Shown: positions 14,290 to 58,135, counted from the stretch's first letter. The stretch: DNA of 64,000 nucleotides from Bacteroidota bacterium (GCA_007693555.1 REDJ01000102.1:23893-87892), one strand, 5' to 3'. The notes: generated by a model from the letters alone, not told the origin. Numbers and translations are program-made.

Positions 14290-14389
14290 TTTGTTTATTT
14301 TGAAATGTGAATAATTTTTTACGGTTATGGCTAACTGGTAAGAAATGCAAATATACATCAGGCTTATGAATCCATATTCAAAAAGAATT

Positions 14390-26559: not shown

Positions 26560-26660
26560 TAAAAGTAAGCCAAAAGGCCTATGGCATTAAAGATAGAAAT
26601 ATCAATTCAAATAACAAAGGTCATCAATTAACAGATGCCAGAAAAATTATATGCTAATTG

Positions 26661-28142: not shown

Positions 28143-28197
28143 ATTTTAACTTGGGTTTTCTTTTAAGAAGTAATAAAGTTATATCAAAAACATATTA

Positions 28198-40420: not shown

Positions 40421-41272
40421 TTAGAAAAGTTTCTTTTCTTCAACCTGCAGGATTTCCATACTTGAATTCATTACATAAACCACCACGGAACAATTCGCTG
40501 CAACCCAGTCCGAATCGAGATTAAAATTATAATTCCGGTGCTGTGAATCATCAACACCAAACAATCCTTCACTGATCTTTTCACCCCAAATATCAGTGAT
40601 ACCCTTTCTAAGCACATGATTATGCACATAATCCAGTATTTCGCCATCAGGATAATCGGGGTGATTGATTTTCTGCGGTTTAATAATTCCGTCCTCAATT
40701 ACAAGAGCCACAAGATAAATTTCACCTTCCTGGTCTTTCAGGGATGTAACACCGGCATCGAGCCTGTAATTTCCTCCCGACATATTGGTAATTCCGATAT
40801 CCAGTCTGAAACCGGGTTCTGCATCCTCTATTACCTGCATTGCTGAACCCCATGATGCCGGGGTCAGCAGCAATGCTCCTTCAAACTCGGTGCGATTTAC
40901 CATACCAATAGGATTCTGTGTAATTCCGAAGTGATTATTCAACGCAGTTCCTTCCGGTGTTCTGAAATCATAATTAAAGGGTTCACTCATTGGGTTGGCA
41001 AAAAAACCTGCATGAACAGATACAATAACTAACCTGTCGCCATAAAAATTCTTCAGCGTTTTGGCAATTTGGCTTCCTGCAGGACAATTTGGGCAGCGAT
41101 GCCCTGTAAACTCTTCCAAAAGAAATTTATGAATTACTTCCACTTCGCCATTTTCACCGTTGTCACCATTTTGTTGTGTGGTAGTCATATAGGGTGGTTC
41201 TATGATATCGCAACTAACAAATAGCAGGATAAAAAAAAGAACTCCGGGAATTACCAATTTAAAGAGTTTCAT
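40421..41272 (-). CDS. Omp28-related outer-membrane lipoprotein with a CxxC motif
   Basis: Lipobox 'LLFVSC'. 'LLEEFTGHRCPNCPAGS…VIVSVHAG' is characteristic of the Omp28-related family. It aligns by eye with the N-terminus of the 45039..47408 product. Confidence 0.7.
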   Translation of the reverse strand: MKLFKLVIPGVLFFILLFVSCDIIEPPYMTTTQQNGDNGENGEVEVIHKFLLEEFTGHRCPNCPAGSQIAKTLKNFYGDRLVIVSVHAGFFANPMSEPFNYDFRTPEGTALNNHFGITQNPIGMVNRTEFEGALLLTPASWGSAMQVIEDAEPGFRLDIGITNMSGGNYRLDAGVTSLKDQEGEIYLVALVIEDGIIKPQKINHPDYPDGEILDYVHNHVLRKGITDIWGEKISEGLFGVDDSQHRNYNFNLDSDWVAANCSVVVYVMNSSMEILQVEEKKLF

Positions 41273-41291
41273 ATTTCAGGAAATTTTTTCA

Positions 41292-42953
41292 TTAAAAACT
41301 ACTTGTAACGCTCAAAGTAAATCCTGTGGATGCCGGAACAACTCTGCACACTCCACCAATACATATGATTCCTTCGCGCTGGCGACCCCAGCCCAGGGCA
41401 AATCGATTGGCATTTTTGTTATAACCCATATTTATGGTATAGTAGTGCAATTGCCGGTCGCTGTCATCATTTCCATAGTTGTACTGGTCCGATACTGCAA
41501 AAAACCAATTGGGAGAAATATTGTACTCAAGCAGCAACATGGCCCAGTTGCCATTATCCTGCGCGGTTGATAAATGCTGAACTTCCCACCTGAGTGATCT
41601 TCTGCGCTCAAGCCTCAAAGTCATATCGGCTACAAAAATATGTGCCTTAACATTTTCCTTATCCAGGTACCCTTCAATCACATTCTGGTTGTAAAACAAA
41701 TTCATATAAGTAAAAGTACCCCTGAGATTTCTGCTGAACCTGCGGCTGACCTCAATGTTAAAGTCCTGGAAGTATTTTTCGTCACCCAGGGCAAAAAACC
41801 GTGAAGTGTAACCATCGGTTCCCGGCTGGCCAATTGCGATAGTATCACTAATGGGTTGCTTATCAATAGAATTTGCAATGCTTGAATTGATGGTGATTGT
41901 GGTACCAAAAGGTCCGCCAAGCAAGGATTCTCTGGGCAACCTGAACGTGAGTTCAGCCAGAGCACCTATTTCGCCGGTTGGTTGGGTAGCATAGGGATAC
42001 ATCCCTGTAAGACTGTAAAGATGTTGCCGTGTCATTGCCGGCAGATAATTGATGTGCAGGTCATTTACTGTTGCATTTCTGTTGGACCGGAAACCCATAT
42101 TGTCAATTCTTTTAGCAGAGAGCAGCAATCCGAACCCAGTGAAAGAATAGGAGCTGCTAACCATCAGAGCTTCACCATGGCGGTAAATAAAATTATTATC
42201 AGCTGATGGGTCATTGGCCTTCCAGGCGTACTCTGAATTGATATTAAGTCCGCCACGGGTAAAATTCAACCGGCCTGCAAAAGCTGCTACATTCTCAGGT
42301 AAAATAAAAATAGGATCCAAATCTCTCTGATATTTGCTTACACCACTCAGACCTACTATCCATTGATTTTGTATTTCTGAAAGCCTGCCGAATGCCTGAT
42401 TCAGATGAATCTCAGCATCACCTCCCCTGACAATTCCCGGCCCTTTATCCCAGTAAAACCTTTGCTGGCCTATAAGCGTGCGGAGTGTAACACCGCCAGC
42501 CGGACGATAGAGCAACCTTATGCCGTCAAATGAATTATCAAGACCCAGATTGGGTTCCACATAACTTCTCAGCACCATCCCGTTTCCGTATTGCTCATAA
42601 AAATTCCCCAGGGTAACCTCCAGGTTATCCTGGGTATAGCTGGCAAACCGGTAAGGAATTCCGCTGCCACGGAACCGAGAGTCAAAACCCAGCAATGGAT
42701 TCTGGTAGCTTTCATATCTCATACCCACTGTGAAACCCCGGAACTCAGCGTTGATGTTAGCGAAGGCATTCATAAGTATTTTTTCCGGTACTTCAGGTGC
42801 CCCGATAAGAGTATCGCTTTGGTAGTATTGAGCGTCCATCTGAAAATTTCCCCAAATTCTTGTGCCCGGAAGTAATTCCTGCGCCAAAACAGTTGTCCCC
42901 ATAAGCATTCCAACCATCAGGATCAGAACTGCAAATTCCCCTCTTTTTATCAT
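41292..42953 (-). CDS. Large outer-membrane beta-barrel protein (I recall this family as DUF6029; not verified)
   Basis: Signal peptide …TVLAQ, strand-like alternation throughout, 'VTLGNFYEQYGNGMVLRSY', and a C-terminal '…VTSSF'. Confidence 0.6.
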   Translation of the reverse strand: MIKRGEFAVLILMVGMLMGTTVLAQELLPGTRIWGNFQMDAQYYQSDTLIGAPEVPEKILMNAFANINAEFRGFTVGMRYESYQNPLLGFDSRFRGSGIPYRFASYTQDNLEVTLGNFYEQYGNGMVLRSYVEPNLGLDNSFDGIRLLYRPAGGVTLRTLIGQQRFYWDKGPGIVRGGDAEIHLNQAFGRLSEIQNQWIVGLSGVSKYQRDLDPIFILPENVAAFAGRLNFTRGGLNINSEYAWKANDPSADNNFIYRHGEALMVSSSYSFTGFGLLLSAKRIDNMGFRSNRNATVNDLHINYLPAMTRQHLYSLTGMYPYATQPTGEIGALAELTFRLPRESLLGGPFGTTITINSSIANSIDKQPISDTIAIGQPGTDGYTSRFFALGDEKYFQDFNIEVSRRFSRNLRGTFTYMNLFYNQNVIEGYLDKENVKAHIFVADMTLRLERRRSLRWEVQHLSTAQDNGNWAMLLLEYNISPNWFFAVSDQYNYGNDDSDRQLHYYTINMGYNKNANRFALGWGRQREGIICIGGVCRVVPASTGFTLSVTSSF

Positions 42954-42957
42954 GATT

Positions 42958-43473
42958 TTATTCGTTTTCCAAAAGCTCTATGAGTTTATCAAGCATTTCC
43001 CATTCCATGCCATCGGCAAATGATGTATGTTGGCTTACGATTTCACCTTTTCCATTAATTATGAATGTGTGGGGCACCATATTAACACCCATGGTACGTC
43101 GGAAATCTCCGTTTTCATCATGATAAAACTCATATTCCCAGCCACGCCCGTTTACCATGGGCAGAATGTTGGCCCGTGTGCGGGCATCGTCAGTGCTGAC
43201 AGCAATTACTTTGAAACCCATATCCTGCCATTCGTCATAGATCTCGGCGATGGCGTTGAGTTCTTTTATACAGGGCCGGCACCACGTTGCCCAGAAGCTT
43301 AAAACGAAAGGCTTACCATCATTTTCAAAAGCTGATGTTTGGAAATCACGCCCGTCAAGTGTTTTGATTGTATGATCAGGAATAGTGCGCGCACCTGTTC
43401 CTTGAGAAAAACTGTAGGTTACAATCAGTATCAGGGCGAACCCTGTAAAAAAATGTTTAAATTTTGCTATCAT
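42958..43473 (-). CDS. TlpA-family thiol:disulfide oxidoreductase (thioredoxin-like, exported)
   Basis: Signal or anchor segment, then 'PFVLSFWATWCRPCIKELNAI' and 'VPHTFIINGKGEIV'. Confidence 0.88.
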   Translation of the reverse strand: MIAKFKHFFTGFALILIVTYSFSQGTGARTIPDHTIKTLDGRDFQTSAFENDGKPFVLSFWATWCRPCIKELNAIAEIYDEWQDMGFKVIAVSTDDARTRANILPMVNGRGWEYEFYHDENGDFRRTMGVNMVPHTFIINGKGEIVSQHTSFADGMEWEMLDKLIELLENE

Positions 43474-43511
43474 GTTTGATATCGATTAAGTTGATTGATT
43501 TAAGCTTCGGT

Positions 43512-44888
43512 TTATCTTATTATGGAGATTTTTTCCCTGAAGATCTGGTTCCCTGATTCAATTAATAAATAATAAACCCCGGCAGAAATGTCACTGACAT
43601 CAATTTGATATGTATTTTGCAGGGTTTTAATAAGTCTTCCCTGCAAATCAAATACCATAATTTGTTCAGGTGTCACAAAATTCATATCGCCCCTGAGTCT
43701 GATGAACTGGTTTGCAGGATTGGGGTACACCACAAACGGGTTTTTTTCAGAAAGTCCTGAAATATACGTAGCGTCATCTCCATCATCATCTTCAGGTGCC
43801 TCATATTCAAGCCTTAAAACCTGCGAAATCTCTGTGGTACCCATTTCCTGGACAAAAGCTATCAAACTCATATTTTCCGTTTCAAGGCTTTCAAACCAGG
43901 GCATAACAAAATCTTTTGAAAAGGTTGTTTTATTCTCTTCAGCAACAAGTTTTGTGCCTTGTGCATCTGGTGCAAAAAACCTCATTACATGATAAAAATC
44001 CTTCTCATGATTTGAGCCTGGCGGTTCATCAAAATGCACACTCTCCTCAATACCTGCAATCAAGAGTCTATAATCTTTATCGGTTGTATTAACAAATATT
44101 TCTCCTTCAAGGGTAATAAATAAGGAATCGTTTTCCACATACCAGTTTCCATCCAGAGAGAAACCTGCCCACTTCTGCAATTCCAGTTGCATAAGCATTT
44201 CTTCAACTCCTTCACTTCCTCCCTTATAAAGGTTTCCTATGGCTGACCAGGGTGTATAAAAGACATCGTAATAGTCACGCCGGATATTTTGATCTTTTGG
44301 GTTAAAGTTATACAATGGGCTGTTCTCATAATGCAATGGATGATAATAGATTTTAACAAACTTATCATCATTTTCATCCACAATCTTTCTTAATGCCGGA
44401 GTAACAGTGGCACAACTCCCGCAATTGATACTTGAGAAACTCTCAAGCAGGGCCATTTGTCTTTCAGCCAGATGATCATAAACCTCCACAAAAACACTTA
44501 CTGTATCACTAACACCCTCATCAGGAGCACCCCCGTTAAGTTCAGTAAACCAAATTTTGATTTCATGCTCACCTTCGTTTTCAGGAATCCACTTTTCACT
44601 TACTAAATATCTGAATGGTACATAAGGATTAACATTAATATTATCAAATAACTCAGAAGCCGGTTCTTCTCCATTTACCTGATAATGTATCCTGATTGAC
44701 ATCAGGGGATTGTTCCCCAGATAGGCTATCTCTCCACGCAGTTCATACTCTTCATGGACTTTGTGAATGGGACCGCCAAAGAAATTGTCAATCCTGATGA
44801 CGTAGGTTTTGTCACCGGCAATGGCAAAACTCAGGATAAAAAATATTGTAAATAAGGAAATTGTGATGCGTAATATATTATTTTTCAT
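43512..44888 (-). CDS. T9SS-sorted protein with a divergent Omp28-like CxxC domain
   Basis: Start chosen at MKNNILRITISLFTIFFILSFAIAG. 'LLESFSSINCGSCATVTP' and 'DFYHVMRF' align with the other two paralogues. C-terminus 'VVYPNPANQFIRL…GVYYLLIES'. Confidence 0.6.
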   Translation of the reverse strand: MKNNILRITISLFTIFFILSFAIAGDKTYVIRIDNFFGGPIHKVHEEYELRGEIAYLGNNPLMSIRIHYQVNGEEPASELFDNINVNPYVPFRYLVSEKWIPENEGEHEIKIWFTELNGGAPDEGVSDTVSVFVEVYDHLAERQMALLESFSSINCGSCATVTPALRKIVDENDDKFVKIYYHPLHYENSPLYNFNPKDQNIRRDYYDVFYTPWSAIGNLYKGGSEGVEEMLMQLELQKWAGFSLDGNWYVENDSLFITLEGEIFVNTTDKDYRLLIAGIEESVHFDEPPGSNHEKDFYHVMRFFAPDAQGTKLVAEENKTTFSKDFVMPWFESLETENMSLIAFVQEMGTTEISQVLRLEYEAPEDDDGDDATYISGLSEKNPFVVYPNPANQFIRLRGDMNFVTPEQIMVFDLQGRLIKTLQNTYQIDVSDISAGVYYLLIESGNQIFREKISIIR

Positions 44889-45038
44889 AAATGTAAAATT
44901 TAATCTAAACTGATGACAGGGAGAAAATCCAGTTTTGTCTGGCACCCCCTGTCACCATGTTTTTCAGATATTTGACTTTTATGAAGTTACGAATTATTTC
45001 CTTTTTAATCAAATATCCGGACTATTGCATCTCTTAAC

Positions 45039-47408
45039 TTATTGAACTACAGTTATTTTTTTCCGTGCAATCTTTCCATCAGCGAATATTTCAACAAAAT
45101 AGATGCCTGCTGAAAACTGCGAAGTATCAATTTTAACACTTGATCCCTGTGTACGTGTTTCATAGGCAAGCTGCCCGTTTATATGGAACAGCCTGATGTT
45201 TACATCGCTGTGAACCGGAGGCAACTCAATGAATATATCGCCTTTGGCGGGATTTGGGAAAATACTTATGGAAGCCGGATCAAATTCATTCACAAATAAA
45301 GCTTCTTCCGTTGTAAATGAGATGTAAACCGGTTCACTGATTTCATCATCCACTCCCATTAAAGCATCTATACCAAGAACATATAACTGATTGTTAGCCA
45401 GATTTGCAAGAGGGCTAACAGTGATTTGGGTTTTTTCGCTGTTTATGGTTGCAGTATAGTTGACCGCATCACCGTGCATGTCATCTTTACGGAAGGTGAG
45501 CAGTTGCCCGATATTCAGGATAGTGATATTCGAACCATCTGCGTGACGTACAGATTGATTGAATTCAATGGTAAATGTATGATTAACAGGAACATCTGAT
45601 TCATGGTCCATTATATCAAACGTGGCAACCGGTGCACCCAGGGATTCGCGCGTAGTAAAGGTTATACTTACAGGTTCGGATATTACTCCATTTGCTCCTA
45701 AAACCGGTGAAATTTCAATAAAATACTGGGTATTGAAATCAAGAATTACATCCGGAATAATGGAAATAGTCTTCTTATCTTCACTAATTGTAGCAGTGAA
45801 TGCTACCGGAGTGCCTGATTTATCAATTTGTGTATAAGTTATGAGTTCATGAACATTGGCATTGGTGATTTCTGTTCCGTCGGTAAAAGTAACTGGTAAG
45901 CTAAAGGTTACATTCACTTCTCCATCAAGTTCTATTCCCTCACTAAGGTCGTCAACATCAAAATTGATTAATAAATCTTCTTCCATCACTCTAAACTTTC
46001 TGGATGCAATAAATGTAAAACTGTTACCTGGTATATTTAACAGTATTTCTCCATCATCAATTATCCTTATATAACCACCTCCAAGTATCCCATCACCGAA
46101 GGAGTCATTTATAGTTAATTTGTAATTACCTAATGGAAGTGAAACATCATGATTATGGGTATTTGTAGCGTTTGGGTATGGCCCTCCATTGGCAACAACT
46201 GCACCCTCTTGCGTCGTAATGTTCCATGTAGTTTCACTACCATACTGATCTGTTCTAACCTGCACGACAAGATCATTATTTGATGTGCCGGGTGCCAGAG
46301 CAAAATTAACAGTAATACTGTTATCCTCTGGGCTGTCGTCTTCATTTAAGATGTTAATTACCAGCTCATTCTGTTCAAGAATATCAAACTGTATCTCAGG
46401 CAGAGTAACTTCTTCAGTTTGTCCGAAATTTAACGAACCTGTCCATTCATACGTATGAACACTACCATCATTTACGTAATATTCTATATCAAGTGAAGTA
46501 AGTTCCTGGCAATAGCTCTTAATCTCAAAAACCGGTTCTAGTATACCATCCCATAGTTCGGAAGGAATAGAATGGCCTGAAATAGCATATTCAAATTCAG
46601 GAGCATTAATAAAAAAAGGTGAAACCTGAACACCGGAAATTATTACCTGTGTATTTTCAGCCACAAATACTGCAACTCTCATATTTTCAAGTTCAGCAGG
46701 TACTTGATTGTAATTATCAGGAATAGTATAATTAAAGGTTTCTGAATGCAGTGAGCCTTCCGTTGTAGTGGTAATATCAACACCCCATTGGCCGCTTATT
46801 AAGTGTACGAGGCGATTATTATGCTCGTAATCGGGGCCACCACCAGACTGAAAAGCATAAGTCTTGTCCTGAAGAAGGGCTACGTTAAGTTTATTGGTAG
46901 AAAAAGGGCTGTTTCCAGTGTAATAAACTTCCACATTTACTGTCAATTCACGGGTTTCTAAATCAATTTGTGCTTCTGCACCCACATTAAGATATGATGG
47001 CTGAGCCAAAATCTGATTGGAAGCATTAGTCCAGTTTCCTCTTCCCATGCCTGTTCCACCTGGAGTCATTTCAAGACCGGGAAAAACATGCCTGTTTACT
47101 GTTCCTCCAGGAAATCCGGTTATTCCGGTTTGCGCTAACAATGAAGGACCAAATGGAGTTCTGAAATCAGGTTGTCCGGCCTGGGGATTCGCAAACCCAC
47201 CTGCATGCACTGCAATAACAACAACACGATCGGGGTTTGCATTGTAAATCTGGTTGGCAATGGTTGAACCTTGTGGACAAAAAACACAGTTTATTCCAGT
47301 ATATTGCTCAAGAATAACATTTTTATTTTGTGGTTCAGTATCAACAATGGTTTGCCCGTAAACAAACAAAGGTAAAACTAATAATAGAGTAGAGATTACT
47401 TTTTTCAT
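45039..47408 (-). CDS. T9SS-sorted protein: N-terminal Omp28-like CxxC domain, two Ig-like (SbsA-Ig type) domains and a sorting domain
   Basis: Signal peptide. 'ILEQYTGINCVFCPQGS…VVIAVHAGGFANP'. Tandem roughly 95-aa repeats ending '…EPVSITFTTRE' and '…EPVYISFTTEE'. C-terminus 'SIFPNPAKGDIFI…GIYFVEIFA'. Confidence 0.7.
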   Translation of the reverse strand: MKKVISTLLLVLPLFVYGQTIVDTEPQNKNVILEQYTGINCVFCPQGSTIANQIYNANPDRVVVIAVHAGGFANPQAGQPDFRTPFGPSLLAQTGITGFPGGTVNRHVFPGLEMTPGGTGMGRGNWTNASNQILAQPSYLNVGAEAQIDLETRELTVNVEVYYTGNSPFSTNKLNVALLQDKTYAFQSGGGPDYEHNNRLVHLISGQWGVDITTTTEGSLHSETFNYTIPDNYNQVPAELENMRVAVFVAENTQVIISGVQVSPFFINAPEFEYAISGHSIPSELWDGILEPVFEIKSYCQELTSLDIEYYVNDGSVHTYEWTGSLNFGQTEEVTLPEIQFDILEQNELVINILNEDDSPEDNSITVNFALAPGTSNNDLVVQVRTDQYGSETTWNITTQEGAVVANGGPYPNATNTHNHDVSLPLGNYKLTINDSFGDGILGGGYIRIIDDGEILLNIPGNSFTFIASRKFRVMEEDLLINFDVDDLSEGIELDGEVNVTFSLPVTFTDGTEITNANVHELITYTQIDKSGTPVAFTATISEDKKTISIIPDVILDFNTQYFIEISPVLGANGVISEPVSITFTTRESLGAPVATFDIMDHESDVPVNHTFTIEFNQSVRHADGSNITILNIGQLLTFRKDDMHGDAVNYTATINSEKTQITVSPLANLANNQLYVLGIDALMGVDDEISEPVYISFTTEEALFVNEFDPASISIFPNPAKGDIFIELPPVHSDVNIRLFHINGQLAYETRTQGSSVKIDTSQFSAGIYFVEIFADGKIARKKITVVQ

Positions 47409-47634
47409 TATTAATTGGTTTTGGTTAAAACTGATTGTAAGATTTTTTTCTGATCATGCAAAGTTAAAACAATTTAAAAATATTTATAAATAAATGATTA
47501 ATTAAAAAAAAGTATTAATATCTGCCGTTTTTATATCAAGCTGATTTTTAATATCTTTATAAAATTACAAATTTGAAATTTTAATTTTCCGTATCAGTTA
47601 TTGGTCTGATTATTGCTTGAAAAATTATAATTGT

Positions 47635-47723: not shown

Positions 47724-48467
47724 ATGAAGAAATTAATACTACCGCTTTTATATATAATGCTATTTCCTTTTTTTGCACAAGCGCAATTAGTCATTCTTGA
47801 CTCGGAAATGGATGACATTACAGATCAAACCATTACAGTGGATGGAACACTTGAAGATTCTTATTTTAAAGTAGATGTATTCTTGAAAAATTCCGGAGAT
47901 GAAACCATTGAAATCTTTGTGCAAAAGATTGAAATAGATGTGATGGATGGGGCTTATATCACATTTTGCTGGAAAGAATATTGCTTTCCGCCGGAAGTAT
48001 TCAATGTGCAGGAACCTATAATACTGGAAGGTGATCAAACTACACGTGATACTGATTTTTACATTGAGTTTCATAATGGTGAAACTGGAGGAATATCAGA
48101 AGCAAGGTTTGAATTCTACAGCGAAAATGAAAGTTTTGATACCGTTTCTATAACTGTAAAGTTTGATATTTCTATACCAACTTTTACAGATGATTTCGCT
48201 CCTCGGAGTAGCTTTCATCTCTCCGATGCCCAACCCAACCCTGCCCGTGGTCATACATGGATCAACTATTCTGTTCCTTCTCACAACACAAATGCCCGGA
48301 TTGTAATCAGAAACCTTCTTGGCAAAGAAGTTCACACTCAAAATCTTGATATTAATAGCAACCGGGTGCGCATTGATACCCAAAGATTTACAAACGGAAT
48401 TTATATTTACTCACTGATGATTGACAACCAGATTGTGGAAAGCAAACGGCTGGTTGTGGCTAACTAA
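47724..48467 (+). CDS. Small T9SS-sorted hypothetical protein
   Basis: Signal peptide …FFAQAQ and a C-terminal sorting domain 'AQPNPARGHTWINY…GIYIYSLMI'. The N-terminal domain is unrecognised and contains 'FCWKEYC'. Confidence 0.6.
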   Translation: MKKLILPLLYIMLFPFFAQAQLVILDSEMDDITDQTITVDGTLEDSYFKVDVFLKNSGDETIEIFVQKIEIDVMDGAYITFCWKEYCFPPEVFNVQEPIILEGDQTTRDTDFYIEFHNGETGGISEARFEFYSENESFDTVSITVKFDISIPTFTDDFAPRSSFHLSDAQPNPARGHTWINYSVPSHNTNARIVIRNLLGKEVHTQNLDINSNRVRIDTQRFTNGIYIYSLMIDNQIVESKRLVVAN

Positions 48468-48552: not shown

Positions 48553-51500
48553 ATGCAACTCAAAATACCATTTGTTAAAAGCTTTTTGCTCGCAGGCCTG
48601 CTATTTTTCAATACTCTGATTTTTGGTCAGATTTCGCAACCCGCTACACCGCCAAGTTTCGAACTTATCAACCTGAAAGAAGAGGTTCAGGCCATCCAAA
48701 TGGAAAAAGTTGATGTGGAAAGATTATTACAGGAAGATCAGATTTTTGATTCCATTAAAGATATACCCTGGCGATTTGGAGAAAATCTGTATGTAAATAT
48801 AAATCCTCAGAACTCAGGTAATTGGGACATCCTGGAGAACGGAGATAAGATTTGGAGGGCATCCATTCATTCAGAAGGAGCCTACACAATTAATCTTACA
48901 TTTGATCAATACAGGTTACCACCGGGTGCTCAGCTATTTGTATACAACAAAGATCAAAGCAGGATACTTGGTGCTTTTACAGATTTCAACAACCAGGAGG
49001 ACGGATATTTCGCTACTACGTTAATTGAAGGTGATTATATTACCATTGAATATTTTGAACCCAAAAATGTAAACTTTCCCGGAGAACTGAACCTTAAGAT
49101 GGTAACCCATGCCTATCGTGATCCTTTTAAATTCGCCAAGGGATTTGGAGATAGCGGCTGGTGTAACCTGAATGTTGCATGCCCCGAATCTGAAGGATGG
49201 GAACAACAGATAAGGTCGGTAGTAATGCTGGTTTCAGGAGGAAATGGATTCTGCTCCGGAGTGATTATCAACAATACGGAATTTGATCAAAAGCCCCTTG
49301 TCCTTTCTGCCAATCACTGTTACCGAAATCCGGCAACAGTTGTATTCTGGTTTAACTGGCAAAGTGAAACCTGCGATAATCCCACATCACCTCCCCCTTA
49401 TAACTCTATGTCGGGCGCTACTCAAAAAGCAAGGCATTCATCGTCAGATTTTTGGCTTATGGAACTTAATCAGGCCATACCGGATGATTACAACCCCTAT
49501 TTCGCCGGATGGAATCGCACGAGTGAAGCATTATTGAATGAAACTATTACCGGCATTCATCATCCACGTGGAGACATAAAAAAATTCAGCTATGCCACTG
49601 GTGGTGTTCAGGCTGCCGCTTATGGCGGAGCACCCGGCTCAGGCACAACGCATTGGCGAATAGTTTGGAGCGGTGGCACAACAACAGAGCCTGGTTCCAG
49701 CGGCTCTCCGATTTTTGATGCTCAGGGCAGGATCCTTGGGCAGTTGCATGGCGGAGGAGCAGCTTGTGGGAACACCCTGCCTGACTGGTATGGAAGATTC
49801 GGTATATCATGGGTTGGAGGAGGAACACCGGCTACCCGGTTGAGCGACTGGCTTGATCCTCTCGGAATGAATTTTACAGCAATAAATGGCCTTGATCCAT
49901 TTGCACCCGGAGTTCTTAATCCCCTGGATTTCACAGCTGAAGCAAACTCAGAGAACGAAGTCTTGTTACAATGGCAACTCAATGTTCAGGAAGATTTTGT
50001 AATGATTGCGGTGAACACCGAGCCTGTTTTTGGTCAACCTGAGGGTAGTTATACATTGGGTGAGGAAATAACAGGCGGGGGAACGGTAATTTATATGGGA
50101 AATGAAGAGGATTTTTTACACATTAATTTGCATCCATCAACAGATTATCATTATGCAATCTGGTCGTATGCCAAACCCGGGCCGGTTTATTCTGAAGGGC
50201 TAACCACTTCCGCAACTACATTTTGCAGCGAAGTAGTTCAGTTTCCTTATTTTGAGGGATTCAATAACTCTGAAATTTCAATTTGCTGGACACAGGAATA
50301 CGTTGTAAATGAACTTAACTGGCAGGTAGGTGTGGGTAATAATGATGGTTATCCGGTTTCGGCCTGGGAAGGTGAAAGCAATGTGTTTTTCAGAACTACA
50401 GAAATTTCTGAAGATGGCAGTAGAACCAGCTTAGTAAGCCCTGAGATGAATCTTTCACTTCACGACCATGCACAACTTTCATTTTATTTTGCAAATCCAT
50501 CATTTGTTGGCAGGCAGGATATACTTAGGATTTATTACAGGACCGAACCTTCACAGGAATGGCAGATTCTTGAAACTTTGGATTTCAACCAATTTACCTG
50601 GACAAATGTAATTCTTGATTTACCCGAATTATCTGACCGTATCCAGATTGCATTTGAAGGGCAGGCAAACCGGGGCAGGGGGATTTCGCTGGACCAGGTT
50701 GAGATCTTTGCCGGGTTCGAACAACAAATCCCCAATCCGGTAAATCTTTCCTTTAATATTGTGGAAGACAATTTCACAGAACTTAGCTGGGAAAATGTTT
50801 TTGAAAATAAAGGAAATTTAGGAATACAAATAAAATCATCAGTGGCAGGTATAAATGTATACAGGGATGGCAGCCTGATTTTTGCCGGGTCAGATATTAA
50901 CCAGACCAACTATACCGATGGTCCTCTTGCTGTGGGAGGTTATACATATTATGTTGCCGGTCGTCAGGTAAATGGAGAGTTATCCGAGCCCTCCAATGAA
51001 GTAAATGTAAATATTCCCGCTCAGGGCAATGAGCATTTGCTCAGCATAGGCAAAACCGGACAGGGTAATATCAGTATTCCTGAAGGTGAATACCATTATA
51101 AACCCGGTACGACAATAGAGCTTGAAGCCATACCAGACGAAAACTGGACACTCCAGCAATGGGTCATAAACGGAGAAGAATCAGGCAACTCCCAATCCAT
51201 AATGATCACCCTCGATATGGATAAGGTAGTTGAAGTAATTTTTATTGCAGATACATGGGAGATAACCGTAAATGCTTCTCCTGAAAACGCAGCCGATGTC
51301 CTGGACGGAGCCGGTATTTATGAACATGGTGAAATAATAACACTTTCTGTTATCCCAAACATTGGTTATATTTTCCTGCACTGGCTGGATGATGATAAAA
51401 TCATATCCACAAAAGAAACAACACAGATCATTGTTAATTCCGATAAAGAATTTACTGCCGTACTTGAATCCCGGGATTTTACAGTGGATGTTAAAATAAA

Positions 51501-52191
51501 ACCTGAAGGCAGTGGTTCAGTAACCGGTGCAGGCACCTTTGGTGCAGGTGAGGAAATAGTCCTTACAGCTACTCCTGAGCCGGGTTGGTTATTCAAAAAC
51601 TGGACAATTGATACCAATTCTGGTGGGTCAGAAGTATCAACCAATAACATTTACACCTTCACCCTAAAAAATAATATTGAACTTACAGCCAATTTTGAGG
51701 CATTTTCACCAACTCTTACCATATCGACAGAAGGACAGGGAACAACTGACCCGGAACCTGGTGAATATAGTTTTGATTACGGACATGAACTTACTTTGAT
51801 CGCAACAGGAACTCATCCATGGGTATTCAGCAAATGGATAATCAATGGCAATGACTTTACAGATGATCAGATCAGTTTGAGTATGATTGAAAATAAGGAC
51901 GCAATTGCAGTTTTCGCTGAAACAACCCATACAGATAACTTCGCATTCATTGAAGAACCTAATCTTTATCCAAATCCTGCTTCCGGCAGATTAAATATCG
52001 TTTTACCCGAAAACGGAAACTGGCAAATTCACATATTTGACATTACGGGGCAATTGCTTGAAAACAGAATGATGGAATTTTTAGCAGGAACTCCGGTAAC
52101 TTTGGATATATCAAATTTAAGGAGTGGGGTTTATATCTTCAGGATTCAAAACGAGGGCAAAGTATTTAACCGCAGGATTCTGGTGGAATAA
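48553..52191 (+). CDS. Secreted trypsin-fold (S1-like, lysyl-endopeptidase-like) serine protease with MAM/choice-of-anchor-like, Fn3-like and repeated InlB-B-repeat-like domains plus a T9SS sorting domain
   Basis: His region 'LVLSANHC' and Ser region 'EPGSSGSPIF'. 'FPYFEGFNN…CWTQ'. Five repeats of the '…GW.F..W…' type. C-terminus 'NLYPNPASGRLNI…GVYIFRIQN'. Confidence 0.75.
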   Translation: MQLKIPFVKSFLLAGLLFFNTLIFGQISQPATPPSFELINLKEEVQAIQMEKVDVERLLQEDQIFDSIKDIPWRFGENLYVNINPQNSGNWDILENGDKIWRASIHSEGAYTINLTFDQYRLPPGAQLFVYNKDQSRILGAFTDFNNQEDGYFATTLIEGDYITIEYFEPKNVNFPGELNLKMVTHAYRDPFKFAKGFGDSGWCNLNVACPESEGWEQQIRSVVMLVSGGNGFCSGVIINNTEFDQKPLVLSANHCYRNPATVVFWFNWQSETCDNPTSPPPYNSMSGATQKARHSSSDFWLMELNQAIPDDYNPYFAGWNRTSEALLNETITGIHHPRGDIKKFSYATGGVQAAAYGGAPGSGTTHWRIVWSGGTTTEPGSSGSPIFDAQGRILGQLHGGGAACGNTLPDWYGRFGISWVGGGTPATRLSDWLDPLGMNFTAINGLDPFAPGVLNPLDFTAEANSENEVLLQWQLNVQEDFVMIAVNTEPVFGQPEGSYTLGEEITGGGTVIYMGNEEDFLHINLHPSTDYHYAIWSYAKPGPVYSEGLTTSATTFCSEVVQFPYFEGFNNSEISICWTQEYVVNELNWQVGVGNNDGYPVSAWEGESNVFFRTTEISEDGSRTSLVSPEMNLSLHDHAQLSFYFANPSFVGRQDILRIYYRTEPSQEWQILETLDFNQFTWTNVILDLPELSDRIQIAFEGQANRGRGISLDQVEIFAGFEQQIPNPVNLSFNIVEDNFTELSWENVFENKGNLGIQIKSSVAGINVYRDGSLIFAGSDINQTNYTDGPLAVGGYTYYVAGRQVNGELSEPSNEVNVNIPAQGNEHLLSIGKTGQGNISIPEGEYHYKPGTTIELEAIPDENWTLQQWVINGEESGNSQSIMITLDMDKVVEVIFIADTWEITVNASPENAADVLDGAGIYEHGEIITLSVIPNIGYIFLHWLDDDKIISTKETTQIIVNSDKEFTAVLESRDFTVDVKIKPEGSGSVTGAGTFGAGEEIVLTATPEPGWLFKNWTIDTNSGGSEVSTNNIYTFTLKNNIELTANFEAFSPTLTISTEGQGTTDPEPGEYSFDYGHELTLIATGTHPWVFSKWIINGNDFTDDQISLSMIENKDAIAVFAETTHTDNFAFIEEPNLYPNPASGRLNIVLPENGNWQIHIFDITGQLLENRMMEFLAGTPVTLDISNLRSGVYIFRIQNEGKVFNRRILVE

Positions 52192-54681: not shown

Positions 54682-54769
54682 CTTATGGAATCATTTATGC
54701 AGTTTTGAAACAAATTCAGTTATTATCAAATACTCTCTTTTAAAAACTATCAAACAGGGTTTTATAAAA

Positions 54770-57184: not shown

Positions 57185-57372
57185 AGTAAACCGGTAGTTT
57201 AATAACCTATATATTTTTTCTACTCACGGGTTAATTTGCAGTGCATCCAAATAGATTTGGAATACAAAAAATATTCTCGTGGAGAAACTCACATCAGCCA
57301 ACAGGAACAGGTAAGACACTTTCTTTTTAGGAAAATAAGCATCTTTCCTGCCCTGTCTGAATAGTAGAAAAA

Positions 57373-58077
57373 TTATTTCGAAACAGAAGTAAGCACAAAT
57401 TCTGTTGTTTTGTCTTCCGTAACAATCTGCCCGTCAAATAATCTGACGATTCTCTGGGCATATGAAGCATCACGTTGCGAGTGGGTAACCATAATTATGG
57501 TAGTTCCGTTTTTATTCAGGTCTTCAAGGAGGTTCATCACTTCATCACCGTGTGTAGAATCGAGGTTACCGGTAGGCTCATCGGCGAGTATTAAGTGTGG
57601 ACGTGCAACCACTGCACGACATACAGCAACCCTTTGTTGCTGACCGCCAGAAAGTTGAAGGGGGAAGTGGTTTTTCCGATGCATGATCTGCATCTGATTT
57701 AATACTTCTTCTACTCTTTTTTTGCGTTCAGATGAGCTGTATCCCAGGTAAATCAGAGGTAACTCTATATTTTCAAAAACACTGAGCTCATCAATGAGAT
57801 TAAAATTCTGAAATACAAAACCAATGTTCTTCTTGCGCAAATTAGCTCTTTGCTTTTCTGAAAAACCGGATACTTCGTTGTTCAGAAAATAATATTCTCC
57901 ATTGGTTGGATTGTCAAGCAAGCCAAGGATATTCAGCAAGGTGGACTTGCCACATCCTGAAGGTCCCATAATGGCCACAAACTCACCTTCATTGATTTCA
58001 AATGACACCTCATTAAGTGCAGTAGTTTCCACTTCTTCTGTGCGAAACACTTTGGTTAAATTAACAGTTTTAATCAT
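57373..58077 (-). CDS. ABC transporter ATP-binding protein (MacB/LolD-type)
   Basis: Walker A 'GPSGCGKST', signature 'LSGGQQQR', Walker B 'ILADEPT' and H-loop 'VTHS'. Confidence 0.93.
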   Translation of the reverse strand: MIKTVNLTKVFRTEEVETTALNEVSFEINEGEFVAIMGPSGCGKSTLLNILGLLDNPTNGEYYFLNNEVSGFSEKQRANLRKKNIGFVFQNFNLIDELSVFENIELPLIYLGYSSSERKKRVEEVLNQMQIMHRKNHFPLQLSGGQQQRVAVCRAVVARPHLILADEPTGNLDSTHGDEVMNLLEDLNKNGTTIIMVTHSQRDASYAQRIVRLFDGQIVTEDKTTEFVLTSVSK

Positions 58078-58135
58078 GGTTGATTTATTTTAAAGTTGCA
58101 ATAATATAAATATTGGATCATTTTTTCAACATTAT

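What the first reader, a model, noticed from the sequence alone, without database searches (positions are those of the whole stretch)
40421..47408. Five-gene operon joining three Omp28-like CxxC paralogues, a TlpA reductase and a large beta-barrel: a candidate envelope or surface thiol-redox system
**Seen in sequence.**
- Five co-oriented minus-strand genes have gaps of about 150, 38, 4 and 19 nt.
- Three products share an N-terminal module with a Cys-x-x-Cys in the same position: 'LEQYTGINCVFCPQG', 'LESFSSINCGSCAT' and 'LEEFTGHRCPNCPAG'. They also share a downstream 'D(Y/F)xH' block.
- The three use different localisation signals. Two carry T9SS C-terminal sorting domains and one has a lipoprotein lipobox.
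- Between them lie a classical periplasmic TlpA ('WATWCRPC') and a 553-aa barrel ending in Phe.

**Established knowledge.** TlpA proteins pass reducing equivalents in the periplasm. The Omp28-related family, named after P. gingivalis Omp28, has no established function.

**Inference.** The pairing suggests one of two things. It could be a relay that brings thiol-redox chemistry to the outer membrane or cell surface. Alternatively, it could be a TlpA-dependent maturation route for surface CxxC proteins, with the barrel acting as partner or conduit.
Basis: partly seen in the sequence, partly recalled or inferred. Interest (0 to 1): 0.7.

Follow-up and report, generated by a model that had tools for sequence, protein, structure and literature searches.

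The report
Conserved outer-membrane thiol-redox gene cassette
This Bacteroidota genome carries an uncharacterised three-gene cassette, also found around the Omp28 gene of the gum pathogen Porphyromonas gingivalis, that pairs a periplasmic disulfide reductase with a very large outer-membrane barrel and a thioredoxin-like lipoprotein, and probably brings thiol chemistry to the outer membrane or cell surface.

Summary
Five co-oriented minus-strand genes encode three Omp28-related CxxC proteins (two with T9SS sorting domains, one a lipoprotein), a TlpA-like reductase and a DUF6029 barrel.

The conserved unit is the last three genes, not all five. TlpA sits directly upstream of DUF6029 in 64 of 68 related loci. 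An Omp28 lipoprotein sits directly downstream in 67 of 72. The same trio surrounds omp28 in P. gingivalis. The T9SS paralogues are lineage-specific additions.

The lipoprotein models confidently as a thioredoxin-type domain plus a beta-sandwich. Its best structural match is P. gingivalis HBP35, a T9SS surface protein with proven cysteine-dependent thioredoxin activity. DUF6029 models as a plug-less barrel of about 24-26 strands.

Two points are new. The barrel's only two cysteines form a near-invariant CxGGxC hairpin. A divergent small T9SS gene (47724-48467) with a conserved Cys pair belongs to the neighbourhood and occurs fused to an HBP35-like module elsewhere.

Best reading: a dedicated envelope thiol-disulfide module acting at the outer membrane. 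The direction of electron flow, the barrel's role and the substrates remain inferred. I found no published description of the cassette.

The parts
47724..48467 (+). G0: a 247-aa T9SS cargo protein, divergently transcribed from the operon. Its only two cysteines are C82 and C87 ('FCWKEYC', nt 47967-47984).
   Evidence: It matches PF18962 at E=1e-10. Homologues lie upstream of the cassette in 22 related loci, and the FCW..C pair is conserved. A weak homologue with the Cys pair aligned lies directly after omp28 in P. gingivalis (E=2e-5). In L076 the domain is fused to an HBP35-like module.
47459..47466 (-). Candidate Bacteroidota-type -7 promoter element TAACTTTG, 51 nt upstream of the G1 start codon.
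   Evidence: It was found by the pattern search. The motif is not enriched in the window overall, so only its position is suggestive. No such motif lies in the gaps between the five genes, and no terminator-like site lies in any of those gaps; two weak terminator-like matches on this strand fall inside coding sequence.
45039..47408 (-). G1: a 789-aa T9SS cargo protein. Parts in order: signal peptide; Omp28/HBP35-like thioredoxin-type module (aa 21-257, nt 46638-47348) with CVFC at 47277-47288; an uncharacterised middle region; two Big_5 Ig-like domains; T9SS sorting domain (nt 45051-45263).
   Evidence: Pfam and NCBIfam hits are. The profile alignment is (E=4e-37). Coordinates were verified.
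43512..44888 (-). G2: a 458-aa T9SS cargo protein counted from the ATG at 44888 (the GTG alternative is at 44945). Parts in order: signal peptide; N-terminal domain; divergent Omp28/HBP35-like module with CGSC at 44412-44423; T9SS sorting domain (nt 43521-43730).
   Evidence: Family hits are, and the profile hit (E=2e-10). The start codon was read. Orthologues in relatives keep 'LESFSSINCGSC' exactly or with a single substitution before the CGSC.
42958..43473 (-). G3: a 171-aa secreted TlpA/ResA-like thiol-disulfide oxidoreductase. Its active site is WCRPC (CRPC at nt 43270-43281), and these are its only two cysteines. Core gene 1 of the cassette.
   Evidence: It matches AhpC-TSA, Redoxin and Thioredoxin_8 and is ResA-, DsbE- and TlpA-like in NCBIfam, below the equivalog cut-offs. 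A homologue sits directly upstream of DUF6029 in 64 of 68 loci. All 65 adjacent homologues carry WCxPC.
41292..42953 (-). G4: a 553-aa DUF6029 outer-membrane beta-barrel. It has a signal peptide, about 24 long strands, no plug or N-terminal domain, and a C-terminal Phe. Its only two cysteines are C531 and C536, in a short CIGGVC hairpin (nt 41346-41363) just before the last strand. Core gene 2.
   Evidence: It matches PF19494 at E=6e-182. The AF2 model has pLDDT 80 and pTM 0.74. Foldseek matches usher, MtrB, LptD and TonB-dependent-transporter barrels. The Cys pair is invariant in alignment A2. It is present in 74 of 80 loci and in 128 of 129 full-length family representatives.
40421..41272 (-). 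G5: a 283-aa Omp28-family lipoprotein. Parts in order: lipobox FVSC with the lipidated Cys21; conserved acidic mature N-terminus C-D-I-I-E-P-P-Y; flexible tether; thioredoxin-type domain with CPNC (C60 and C63, nt 41084-41095) and candidate cis-Pro P121; C-terminal beta-sandwich (aa 155-281). Core gene 3.
   Evidence: Family hits are. Invariant residues come from alignment A1. The AF2 model has pLDDT 92.7. Foldseek's best hit is HBP35, PDB 5Y1A, at E=1.6e-12. A homologue sits directly downstream of DUF6029 in 67 of 72 loci. The CxxC is present in all 70 such homologues.

Best explanation
**What it is.** The locus encodes a dedicated envelope thiol-disulfide module of Bacteroidota. Its conserved core is an operon of three genes.
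1. A secreted TlpA-like oxidoreductase with a WCxPC active site.
2. A large, plug-less DUF6029 outer-membrane barrel.
3. An Omp28-family lipoprotein. Its N-terminal half is a thioredoxin-type domain with a CxNC active site. The whole two-domain module is homologous to P. gingivalis HBP35.

**Proposed mechanism (inferred).**
- TlpA is kept reduced by a CcdA/DsbD-type inner-membrane protein encoded elsewhere in the genome.
- TlpA exchanges electrons with the CxNC of the lipoprotein.
- The lipoprotein is held on or in the barrel, as a lipoprotein-barrel pair.
- This places disulfide reduction or exchange chemistry at the outer membrane and probably on the cell surface.

**Local expansion.** In this genome the core is extended by two T9SS-delivered HBP35-like paralogues (G1, G2) and a small Cys-pair T9SS protein (G0). 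These are likely additional surface oxidoreductases and a client or partner.

**Shown.** Gene order and its conservation. Homology of the three modules. A thioredoxin-type fold with the CxxC at the helix N-cap. A large barrel. One conserved Cys pair in each component.

**Inferred.** The TlpA-lipoprotein electron transfer. The barrel-lipoprotein complex. Surface exposure. The direction of electron flow. The substrates.
For: **Conserved gene order.**
- Among 80 genome loci holding DUF6029 homologues of 39-89% identity, TlpA lies directly upstream in 64 of 68 and an Omp28 lipoprotein directly downstream in 67 of 72. Both are present in 55 of 62. Median gaps are 13 and 19 nt.
- No other gene family is broadly conserved within 10 kb on either side.
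- TlpA-like hits number 65 adjacent against 6 elsewhere in 1.21 Mb. The Omp28-type CxxC motif occurs beside the barrel in 53 of 56 loci by pattern, and the other three carry it by eye (AEDYTG..CGNC). It occurs in 1 of 457 background ORFs.
- Starting instead from distant Omp28 lipoproteins, 4 of 4 informative look-ups returned the same trio. One of them is P. gingivalis omp28 itself.

**Thioredoxin-type lipoprotein.**
- The AF2 model of G5 has pLDDT 92.7. Its secondary-structure order is beta(50-56), C60xxC63, helix(63-80), beta(81-87), helix(106-115), P121, beta(122-125), helix(138-148), followed by a beta-sandwich.
- Foldseek's best match is HBP35 (5Y1A, E=1.6e-12). Next come the DUF1223 thioredoxin-like protein 2AXO and the Omp28 C-terminal domain 2R2C.
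- HBP35 reduces insulin faster than E. coli thioredoxin, and only when C48 and C51 are intact. An earlier study cited there found that hbp35 complements an E. coli dsbA mutant. It is a T9SS surface protein (PMC2907840).
- C60, N62, C63 and P121 are invariant in 61 homologues.
- NCBIfam holds a model named 'Omp28-related selenoprotein' (NF045500), which matches all three paralogues below its cut-off. From general knowledge, selenocysteine occupies catalytic redox positions.

**Cysteine economy.** TlpA, the barrel and G0 each contain exactly two cysteines, forming one pair each. The barrel's CxGGxC is kept in 128 of 129 full-length family representatives.

**Barrel size.** The barrel's fold matches are the 24-26-strand barrels that house proteins: FimD and PapC ushers, MtrB and LptD.

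**Surface signal.** The mature lipoprotein N-terminus, C-D-K-(I/V)-(E/D), is acidic and conserved. It resembles the Bacteroidota lipoprotein export signal (PMC5080379).

**Fusion.** In L076 one protein joins an HBP35-like module, a G0 domain and a T9SS sorting domain.
Against: - There is no direct evidence of any protein-protein contact or electron transfer.
- No CcdA or DsbD gene lies in the window or is conserved near the cassette.
- The redox direction cannot be read from sequence. hbp35 is reported to complement dsbA (cited in PMC2907840), so an oxidising role is possible.
Cysteine exposure and the position of the barrel hairpin therefore rest on secondary-structure order and topology reasoning. 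The hairpin itself is modelled at only about pLDDT 57.
- The match to the lipoprotein export signal is approximate, not exact.
- HBP35 also binds hemin and supports growth at low hemin, so a ligand-binding role for the module is not excluded.
- A few loci lack the lipoprotein (5 of 72) or TlpA (4 of 68).
Confidence: 0.5

Rival explanations
1. Biogenesis or maturation route. The barrel and the T9SS cargo are clients rather than partners. TlpA and the Omp28 lipoprotein act as a reductase-isomerase or oxidase pair. They set or proof-read the single Cys pairs of the DUF6029 barrel hairpin, of G0 and of the HBP35-like cargo during periplasmic transit and outer-membrane insertion. The closest analogy is DsbA/DsbC acting on LptD.
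For: - Every component has exactly one conserved Cys pair. The barrel's CxGGxC hairpin has cross-strand disulfide geometry.
- hbp35 is reported to complement E. coli dsbA (cited in PMC2907840).
- T9SS cargo can meet periplasmic TlpA only before export. This is an inference.
Against: - A lone two-cysteine hairpin needs no isomerase.
- It is unclear why a barrel would need its own private reductase and thioredoxin-like lipoprotein in essentially every genome.
- T9SS paralogues and G0 are absent from most loci that keep the trio.
Confidence: 0.2
2. Nutrient capture system for heme or a thiophilic metal. The lipoprotein and the T9SS paralogues are surface binding proteins. Their CxxC, together with the invariant histidines, ligate heme or a metal. 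The barrel is the uptake channel. TlpA only keeps the ligand cysteines reduced, as TlpA does for the copper chaperone ScoI.
For: - HBP35 binds hemin through its C-terminal part, and hbp35 mutants grow poorly at low hemin.
- H87, H217, E193, Q200 and R222 are invariant alongside the CxxC.
- The barrel's fold hits include TonB-dependent transporters and the copper transporter OprC.
- The TlpA-ScoI precedent comes from my own knowledge and was not checked here.
Against: - The barrel has no plug domain, TonB box or N-terminal extension; strand 1 starts right after the signal peptide.
- HBP35's hemin binding does not need its cysteines.
- The existence of a selenoprotein variant argues for catalysis rather than ligand binding.
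- The cassette is found in free-living soda-lake, marine and rumen lineages alike, with no conserved metal or heme genes nearby.
Confidence: 0.15
3. Polysaccharide export. DUF6029 is a Wzi-like porin for a surface polymer, as suggested from HHpred similarity in a survey of OPX-linked barrels. The redox genes would then be incidental neighbours.
For: PMC9603273 reports that plug-less Wzi-like barrels near OPX genes resemble DUF6029.
Against: - No OPX, Wzx/Wzy or glycosyltransferase family is conserved near the 80 DUF6029 loci. Only TlpA and Omp28-like genes are.
- Wzi is not among the 50 best fold matches. The model has about 24-26 strands; Wzi has 18 by my own knowledge, not checked here.
Confidence: 0.03

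Closest known systems
HBP35 of Porphyromonas gingivalis (PDB 5Y1A)
   Same: It has the same two-domain module: a thioredoxin-type domain with a CxxC, followed by a beta-sandwich. It is the best structural match to G5 and is detectable by profile. Like G1 and G2 it is a T9SS cargo protein with a C-terminal sorting domain. Its cysteine-dependent thioredoxin activity has been demonstrated.
   Different: HBP35 carries WCGYC, whereas the window proteins carry CVFC, CGSC and CPNC. G5 is a lipoprotein, not T9SS cargo. G1 carries extra Big_5 domains. Whether HBP35 depends on the TlpA-DUF6029-Omp28 cassette is unknown. Hemin binding was not assessed for the window proteins.
Omp28 (PG2173) of P. gingivalis and its neighbours
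   Same: It belongs to the same family as G5 and shares the lipobox, the acidic N-terminus 'CDIIDKDQ' and a CLNC motif. It sits in the same Redoxin-DUF6029-Omp28 gene order and is followed by a G0-like T9SS protein.
   Different: It is about 35-40% identical at most to G5. G5 scores below NCBIfam's cut-off for the Omp28 lipoprotein subfamily (132.9 against 150). No function is published for Omp28 or its neighbours in the literature I could search.
Periplasmic reductive pathways: CcdA/DsbD feeding TlpA, ResA or CcmG
   Same: G3 has the fold, the signal peptide and the WCxPC motif of this family. Such proteins are dedicated reductants for one client or a few clients. That statement is established knowledge and was not tested here.
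   Different: Known clients are periplasmic or inner-membrane proteins such as apocytochrome c, ScoI and CoxB. Here the linked partners are an outer-membrane barrel and an outer-membrane lipoprotein. G3 does not reach any equivalog cut-off, so it is not ResA, DsbE or TlpA proper.
Barrel-plus-lipoprotein outer-membrane complexes (LptD-LptE, MtrB-MtrA/C, SusC-SusD, usher barrels)
   Same: DUF6029 is a barrel of comparable size, and these are its best fold matches. It is encoded next to an obligate lipoprotein partner. MtrCAB is the precedent for moving electrons across the outer membrane through a barrel.
   Different: The fold matches are generic (TM-score 0.35-0.49). No complex has been shown. 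The chemistry would be thiol-disulfide exchange rather than heme-based electron transfer, lipopolysaccharide transport or glycan transport.
DUF1223 (PDB 2AXO, Agrobacterium AGR_C_4864)
   Same: It is the second-best structural match and shares the thioredoxin-like domain plus C-terminal domain architecture. One G5 homologue also hits PF06764.
   Different: It is a proteobacterial secreted protein of unknown function. It was not seen here in a barrel-TlpA context.

Membership tests
Pfam PF11551 Omp28 | Score at or above the gathering cut-off of 34.9 bits. | tested here: met
   G5 scores 102 bits and G1 scores 58.4 bits, so both pass. G2 scores 30.8-32.7 bits, just below the cut-off. G2's homology is nevertheless supported by the A1 profile (E=2e-10) and by NF045500 (E=3e-9). 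The Pfam model covers only the C-terminal part and not the CxxC-bearing half.
NCBIfam NF033782 Omp28 family outer membrane lipoprotein | Score at or above the cut-off of 150 bits. | tested here: not met
   G5 scores 132.9 bits over its full length. It is therefore best called Omp28-related, not a member of the curated subfamily.
NCBIfam NF033782 Omp28 family outer membrane lipoprotein | Lipoprotein signal peptide with a lipobox cysteine. | tested here: met
   G5 has the lipobox FVSC with Cys21, which is invariant in 61 homologues.
Thioredoxin fold oxidoreductase | Beta-alpha-beta / alpha / beta-beta-alpha topology, with the CxxC at the N-terminus of helix 1 and a cis-proline loop before strand 3. 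| tested here: met
   The order of secondary-structure elements in the AF2 model fits (pLDDT 92.7). C60xxC63 sits at the start of helix 63-80, and the invariant P121 directly precedes strand 122-125.
Thioredoxin fold oxidoreductase | Cysteine-dependent oxidoreductase activity. | not testable with these tools
   Activity is shown only for the relative HBP35 (PMC2907840).
HBP35-like T9SS surface thioredoxins | A thioredoxin-like plus beta-sandwich module, together with a T9SS type A C-terminal sorting domain. | tested here: met
   G1 and G2 each have the module and PF18962/TIGR04183. G5 has the module but a lipobox in place of the sorting domain.
HBP35-like T9SS surface thioredoxins | Hemin binding. 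| not testable with these tools
   No assay was possible. The histidine residues proposed for HBP35 were not mapped onto the window proteins.
TlpA/ResA/DsbE thiol-disulfide oxidoreductases | Redoxin/AhpC-TSA fold, secretion signal and a WCxxC active site. | tested here: met
   G3 scores 76.3 bits on PF00578 and 65.7 bits on PF08534. The motif is WCRPC. The N-terminal hydrophobic signal was read from the sequence.
TlpA/ResA/DsbE thiol-disulfide oxidoreductases | Membership of a named equivalog (ResA, DsbE/CcmG, TlpA or StoA). | tested here: not met
   All scores are far below the cut-offs: ResA 76.9 against 170, DsbE 55.9 against 123, and TlpA 52.5 against 230.
TlpA/ResA/DsbE thiol-disulfide oxidoreductases | An electron donor of the CcdA/DsbD type in the genome. 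| tested here: inconclusive
   No such gene was found among the 37 window proteins scanned or as a conserved neighbour. The rest of the genome was not available.
Pfam PF19494 DUF6029 | Score at or above the gathering cut-off of 27 bits, over the full length. | tested here: met
   G4 scores 606.4 bits, covering profile positions 11-538 of 538.
Wzi-like polysaccharide porins | Wzi-type barrel fold and linkage to OPX or capsule genes. | tested here: not met
   Wzi is not among the best 50 fold matches, and the model has about 24-26 strands. No polysaccharide-export family is conserved near DUF6029 in the 80 loci.
Barrel-lipoprotein outer-membrane complexes (LptDE-, MtrCAB- or SusCD-like) | A stable physical complex of the barrel with its lipoprotein. 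| not testable with these tools
   Only gene adjacency and barrel size are available. No multimer prediction was available.

The most novel reading that the evidence does not exclude
The cassette is a trans-outer-membrane thiol-disulfide relay. Reducing equivalents from periplasmic TlpA pass through the lumen of the 24-26-strand DUF6029 barrel to surface-exposed Omp28- and HBP35-type thioredoxins. The route could run via a lipoprotein domain lodged in the barrel, via the barrel's own CxGGxC hairpin, or via both. This would give Bacteroidota a rechargeable cell-surface disulfide reductase. It would be a thiol-based counterpart of the heme-based MtrCAB conduit. It would also explain how T9SS-anchored thioredoxins such as HBP35 are recycled outside the cell.
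Probability: 0.15. Interest if true: 0.85.

Novelty: new variant of a known kind. Interest (0 to 1): 0.62.

Why it matters
**A gap in known redox pathways.** To my knowledge, which I did not check here, extracytoplasmic thiol-redox pathways in Gram-negative bacteria are known to end in the periplasm or at the inner membrane. This cassette links a TlpA-type reductase to two outer-membrane proteins, tightly and across many lineages. The sampled genomes carry labels from several orders of Bacteroidota. One of them is the pathogen P. gingivalis, whose Omp28 gave the family its name but has no known function.

**What it would explain if the reading is right.**
- It assigns a role to three poorly understood families at once: DUF6029, Omp28 and one TlpA subgroup.
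- It offers an answer to how surface thioredoxins such as HBP35 could be kept active outside the cell.

**Testability.** The hypothesis can be tested directly in a genetically tractable organism. Omp28 has been described as immunoreactive. It was detected in P. gingivalis outer-membrane vesicles only after H2O2 stress (PMC12937337).

Tried and rejected
- **Selenocysteine variants.** I searched all 80 loci and the window for in-frame stop codons replacing either cysteine of the CxxC. No credible case was found.
- **Missing partners as ORF-calling artefacts.** A tblastn search showed that the few loci lacking TlpA or the lipoprotein next to the barrel truly lack them there. In L069 TlpA lies 3 kb upstream. 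L022 keeps a T9SS-type paralogue instead of the lipoprotein.
- **Literature on the cassette.** Searches for DUF6029, Omp28 with thioredoxin, barrel or selenoprotein, and PG2173, PG2174 and PG2175 found no functional study. The preprint that mentions HBP35-like thioredoxins (PMC13404670) does not describe this trio.
- **Sigma-70 promoter and terminator scan.** Counts were at or below shuffle expectation, so the scan was uninformative. The Bacteroidota -7 motif is not enriched in the window.
- **Single-sequence PDB searches with G1 and G2.** They found only T9SS sorting domains. Only the family profile and the structural model reach HBP35.
- **Pfam at relaxed thresholds.** It does not detect a thioredoxin family in the CxxC half. 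There is only a DSBA hint at E=0.2 for G2.
- **A conserved CcdA/DsbD or other fourth core gene.** Neighbourhood clustering found none. Only clade-restricted families appear.
- **Polysaccharide-porin reading of DUF6029.** Rejected; see the rival explanations.

Full report

Yes. ORF listing gives five minus-strand genes.
- G1: 45039-47408, 789 aa.
- G2: 43512-44945 from a GTG start. The sequence shows an ATG at 44888 that opens a typical signal peptide, 'MKNNILRITISLF'.
- G3: 42958-43473, 171 aa.
- G4: 41292-42953, 553 aa, ending 'VTSSF'.
- G5: 40421-41272, 283 aa.

The gaps are 150 nt (93 nt with the GTG start), 38, 4 and 19 nt.

Pfam and NCBIfam scans confirm the family assignments.
- The Omp28 family hits G5 (E=4e-29) and G1 (1e-15). 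G2 scores 3e-7, just under the curated cut-off.
- The T9SS sorting domain hits G1 and G2.
- G3 matches AhpC-TSA/Redoxin and is ResA-, DsbE- and TlpA-like.
- G4 matches DUF6029 at 6e-182.

A profile built from 61 G5 homologues aligns G1 (E=4e-37) and G2 (E=2e-10). The CxxC, the 'H' of the second strand, the loop proline and the D(Y/F)xH block are all in register. The three modules are therefore homologous. The window comes from a Bacteroidetes metagenome-assembled genome, since G5 is 100% identical to the product of locus tag EA393_06805.

**2. What is the conserved unit?**

I fetched 80 genome loci that encode DUF6029 homologues of 39-89% identity. Their record titles name Bacteroidales, Flavobacteriales, Sphingobacteriia, Saprospiraceae, Catalimonadaceae and Lentimicrobiaceae. 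I called ORFs in each locus and searched them with profiles.
- A TlpA-like gene lies directly upstream of the barrel on the same strand in 64 of 68 loci with enough flank.
- An Omp28-type lipoprotein gene lies directly downstream in 67 of 72.
- Both are present in 55 of 62. Median gaps are 13 and 19 nt.
- Of 71 TlpA-like hits in 1.21 Mb, 65 are at that one position.
- The Omp28-type 'hEx(F/Y)(T/S)..CxxC' motif is found beside the barrel in 53 of 56 loci by pattern. The other three carry it by eye (AEDYTG..CGNC). It occurs in 1 of 457 ORFs elsewhere.
- All-against-all clustering of the neighbourhoods found no other broadly conserved family.

Approaching from the other side gave the same answer. 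The P. gingivalis Omp28 lipoprotein, which gave the family its name, and three distant Omp28 lipoproteins all sit in Redoxin-DUF6029-Omp28 trios.

The large T9SS paralogues that correspond to G1 and G2 occur upstream in only 17 of 56 loci. All 29 such proteins keep a CxxC in the same sequence context, and they fall into several subtypes: CGSC, CPPC, WCxxC and a CxFC/CxYC group like G1. So the five-gene operon is a three-gene core plus lineage-specific accessories.

**3. What are the parts?**

*Lipoprotein G5.* The AlphaFold2 model built with the 61-sequence alignment is confident (pLDDT 92.7, pTM 0.84). After the lipobox and a disordered tether it shows strand 50-56, C60xxC63 at the start of helix 63-80, strand 81-87, helix 106-115, P121 directly before strand 122-125, and helix 138-148. 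That is the thioredoxin-fold order, with the CxxC at the helix N-cap and a candidate cis-proline loop. A beta-sandwich follows at 155-281. C60, N62, C63, H87, P121, R127, E193, Q200, H217 and R222 are invariant.

Foldseek against the PDB puts P. gingivalis HBP35 first (5Y1A, E=1.6e-12, TM 0.63). Next come the DUF1223 thioredoxin-like protein 2AXO and the Omp28 C-terminal domain 2R2C. The family profile also reaches 2R2C (8e-29) and HBP35 (4e-4) by sequence.

HBP35 is a T9SS-anchored surface protein. The recombinant protein reduces insulin faster than E. coli thioredoxin, and only when C48 and C51 are intact. An earlier study cited in the same paper found that an hbp35 plasmid complements an E. 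coli dsbA mutant. HBP35 also binds hemin through its C-terminal part (PMC2907840).

The Pfam Omp28 model covers only the C-terminal part of the module. This probably explains why the family description carries no redox annotation. NCBIfam, however, holds a model named 'Omp28-related selenoprotein', which matches all three paralogues below its cut-off.

The mature N-terminus of the lipoprotein is conserved and acidic: C-D-K-(I/V)-(E/D)-... in relatives, CDIIEPPY here, and CDIIDKDQ in P. gingivalis. It resembles, without exactly matching, the Bacteroidota lipoprotein export signal K-(D/E)2 or Q-A-(D/E)2 (PMC5080379). Surface exposure is therefore plausible but only inferred.

*Barrel G4.* The model (pLDDT 80, pTM 0.74) is all-beta, with about 24 long strands starting right after the signal peptide. 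It has no plug or N-terminal domain. The best fold matches are the protein-housing large barrels: FimD and PapC ushers, MtrB, LptD and TonB-dependent transporters. TM-scores are modest at 0.35-0.49. Wzi, which a survey paper proposed as a relative (PMC9603273), is not among the top 50.

They sit in a short hairpin, 'IICIGGVCRVV' (strands 528-532 and 535-539), immediately before the last strand. The pair is invariant in the 50-sequence alignment. It is present in 74 of 80 loci. In a profile search of 1.84 billion representatives, 128 of 129 full-length top hits keep it. That search found 1,745 family representatives, 436 of them at E<=1e-30.

The last strand must run from the outside toward the periplasm to place the C-terminal Phe correctly. 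The hairpin therefore hangs from the extracellular rim and points either outward or into the lumen. This is topology reasoning, not a measurement. The hairpin is also the least confident part of the C-terminal region, at about pLDDT 57.

*TlpA G3.* It is a generic member of the TlpA/ResA/DsbE family. It has a secretion signal and WCRPC as its only cysteines. It does not reach any named equivalog cut-off. The adjacent TlpA genes in other genomes form a coherent group (E from 1e-45 to 1e-106, all WCxPC). They are distinct from other TlpA-domain proteins in the same loci, which score 1e-4 to 1e-5.

*Extra gene G0.* The divergently transcribed gene at 47724-48467 (+) encodes a 247-aa T9SS cargo protein. 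Its only two cysteines form 'FCWKEYC'.
- Homologues with the same FCW..C pair lie upstream of the cassette in 22 loci.
- A weak homologue (E=2e-5) with the Cys pair aligned lies immediately after omp28 in P. gingivalis.
- In locus L076 the domain (aa 242-379, E=9e-35) is fused behind an HBP35-like WCPYC module and ahead of a T9SS sorting domain.

That fusion links G0 functionally to the thioredoxin-like module.

**4. How does it most likely work?**

Shown: an operon-like trio that is nearly obligate. Each component carries essentially one conserved Cys pair. One is a periplasmic TlpA-type oxidoreductase. One is a thioredoxin-type lipoprotein homologous to a protein with proven thioredoxin activity. 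One is a barrel large enough to house a protein domain.

Inferred:
- TlpA is charged by a CcdA/DsbD-type protein encoded elsewhere; none was found in the window or as a conserved neighbour.
- TlpA exchanges electrons with the lipoprotein's CxNC.
- The lipoprotein and barrel form a complex that positions this chemistry at the outer membrane or surface.
- In this genome the T9SS paralogues and G0 extend the system outward.

I put about 0.5 on this general model.

The rivals are as follows.
- A biogenesis or proof-reading route in which the barrel hairpin and the cargo are clients (0.2).
- A heme or metal capture system in which the cysteines and invariant histidines are ligands (0.15).
- Polysaccharide export (0.03).

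The direction of electron flow cannot be decided from sequence. The reported ability of hbp35 to complement dsbA keeps an oxidising role open.

**5. Comparison with what is known, and novelty.**

Every protein family here already exists in Pfam or NCBIfam. HBP35 supplies a biochemical precedent for T9SS surface thioredoxins. TlpA-type dedicated reductants are well known.

What I could not find described is the cassette itself. Searches covered DUF6029, Omp28 combined with thioredoxin, barrel or selenoprotein, and PG2173, PG2174 and PG2175. Undescribed elements are the obligate linkage of a TlpA subgroup to an outer-membrane barrel and a thioredoxin-type outer-membrane lipoprotein, the barrel's invariant Cys hairpin, and the G0 family.

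I therefore class it as a new variant of a known kind: an extracytoplasmic thiol-redox pathway with outer-membrane partners. The most novel reading not excluded is a thiol-disulfide relay across the outer membrane, analogous to MtrCAB. I give it about 0.15.

**6. Verdict.**

Interest is 0.62. The cassette is widespread and uncharacterised. It has a clear, testable hypothesis in P. gingivalis.

Noticed in passing
window 41346-41363 (-), and DUF6029 homologues generally: DUF6029 barrels contain a near-invariant C-x-G-G-x-C hairpin just before the last strand. In the window protein these are the only two cysteines among 553 residues. The pair is kept in 128 of 129 full-length family representatives.
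   Followed up: yes
window 47724-48467 (+); L083 8899-9621; L076 7836-9245 (-): A small T9SS cargo family with a conserved FCW..C cysteine pair and no Pfam domain apart from the sorting domain. It recurs next to the cassette, including in P. gingivalis. In L076 it is fused to an HBP35-like thioredoxin module.
   Followed up: partly
L013 65-2416 (-), L016 5145-6806 (-) and 7005-9152 (-): T9SS proteins whose N-terminal module carries WCxxC, as in HBP35. The module is fused to long arrays of roughly 70-aa repeats of the form 'TFDIKDEEGNEITDAVVTF...GDYVFE...YEYKVEKEGY'. This shows that the thioredoxin-like module is combined with many different passenger domains.
   Followed up: no
window 6242-9889 (-) and 14390-18142 (-): Two very large T9SS cargo proteins (1215 and 1250 aa), each combining a CotH kinase-like domain, a lamin-tail domain and a chitobiase C-terminal-like domain.
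   Followed up: no
window 48553-52191 (+): A 1212-aa T9SS cargo protein with a trypsin-like peptidase domain, a MAM domain and three InlB B-repeat-like domains. It lies directly downstream of G0 on the same strand.
   Followed up: no
window 52282-59386 (-): A MacB-type efflux cluster: two FtsX/MacB permeases of about 800 aa, an ABC ATPase and a HlyD-family adaptor.
   Followed up: no
window 12427-14358 (-) and 25432-29982 (-): Alpha-glucan utilisation genes are scattered through the window: a cyclomaltodextrinase, a GH77 4-alpha-glucanotransferase, an MFS sugar transporter and a prokaryotic ketohexokinase.
   Followed up: no
L052 and L055 (record titles 'uncultured Akkermansia sp.'): Two contigs labelled Akkermansia carry the Bacteroidota-type TlpA-DUF6029-Omp28 trio. 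This may reflect mis-binning or mislabelling of the metagenome-assembled genomes.
   Followed up: no
L088 909-1166: In one metagenome contig a small 85-aa ORF is inserted immediately upstream of the Omp28-like gene, where the barrel gene normally ends. It reads 'KFTEYDMNYFVYVLAEKG...' and may be GIY-YIG-like; that resemblance is by eye only.
   Followed up: no
PMC12937337, Table 1: P. gingivalis Omp28 is listed among the proteins detected only in outer-membrane vesicles from H2O2-treated cells. This is a weak hint of a link to oxidative stress.
   Followed up: no
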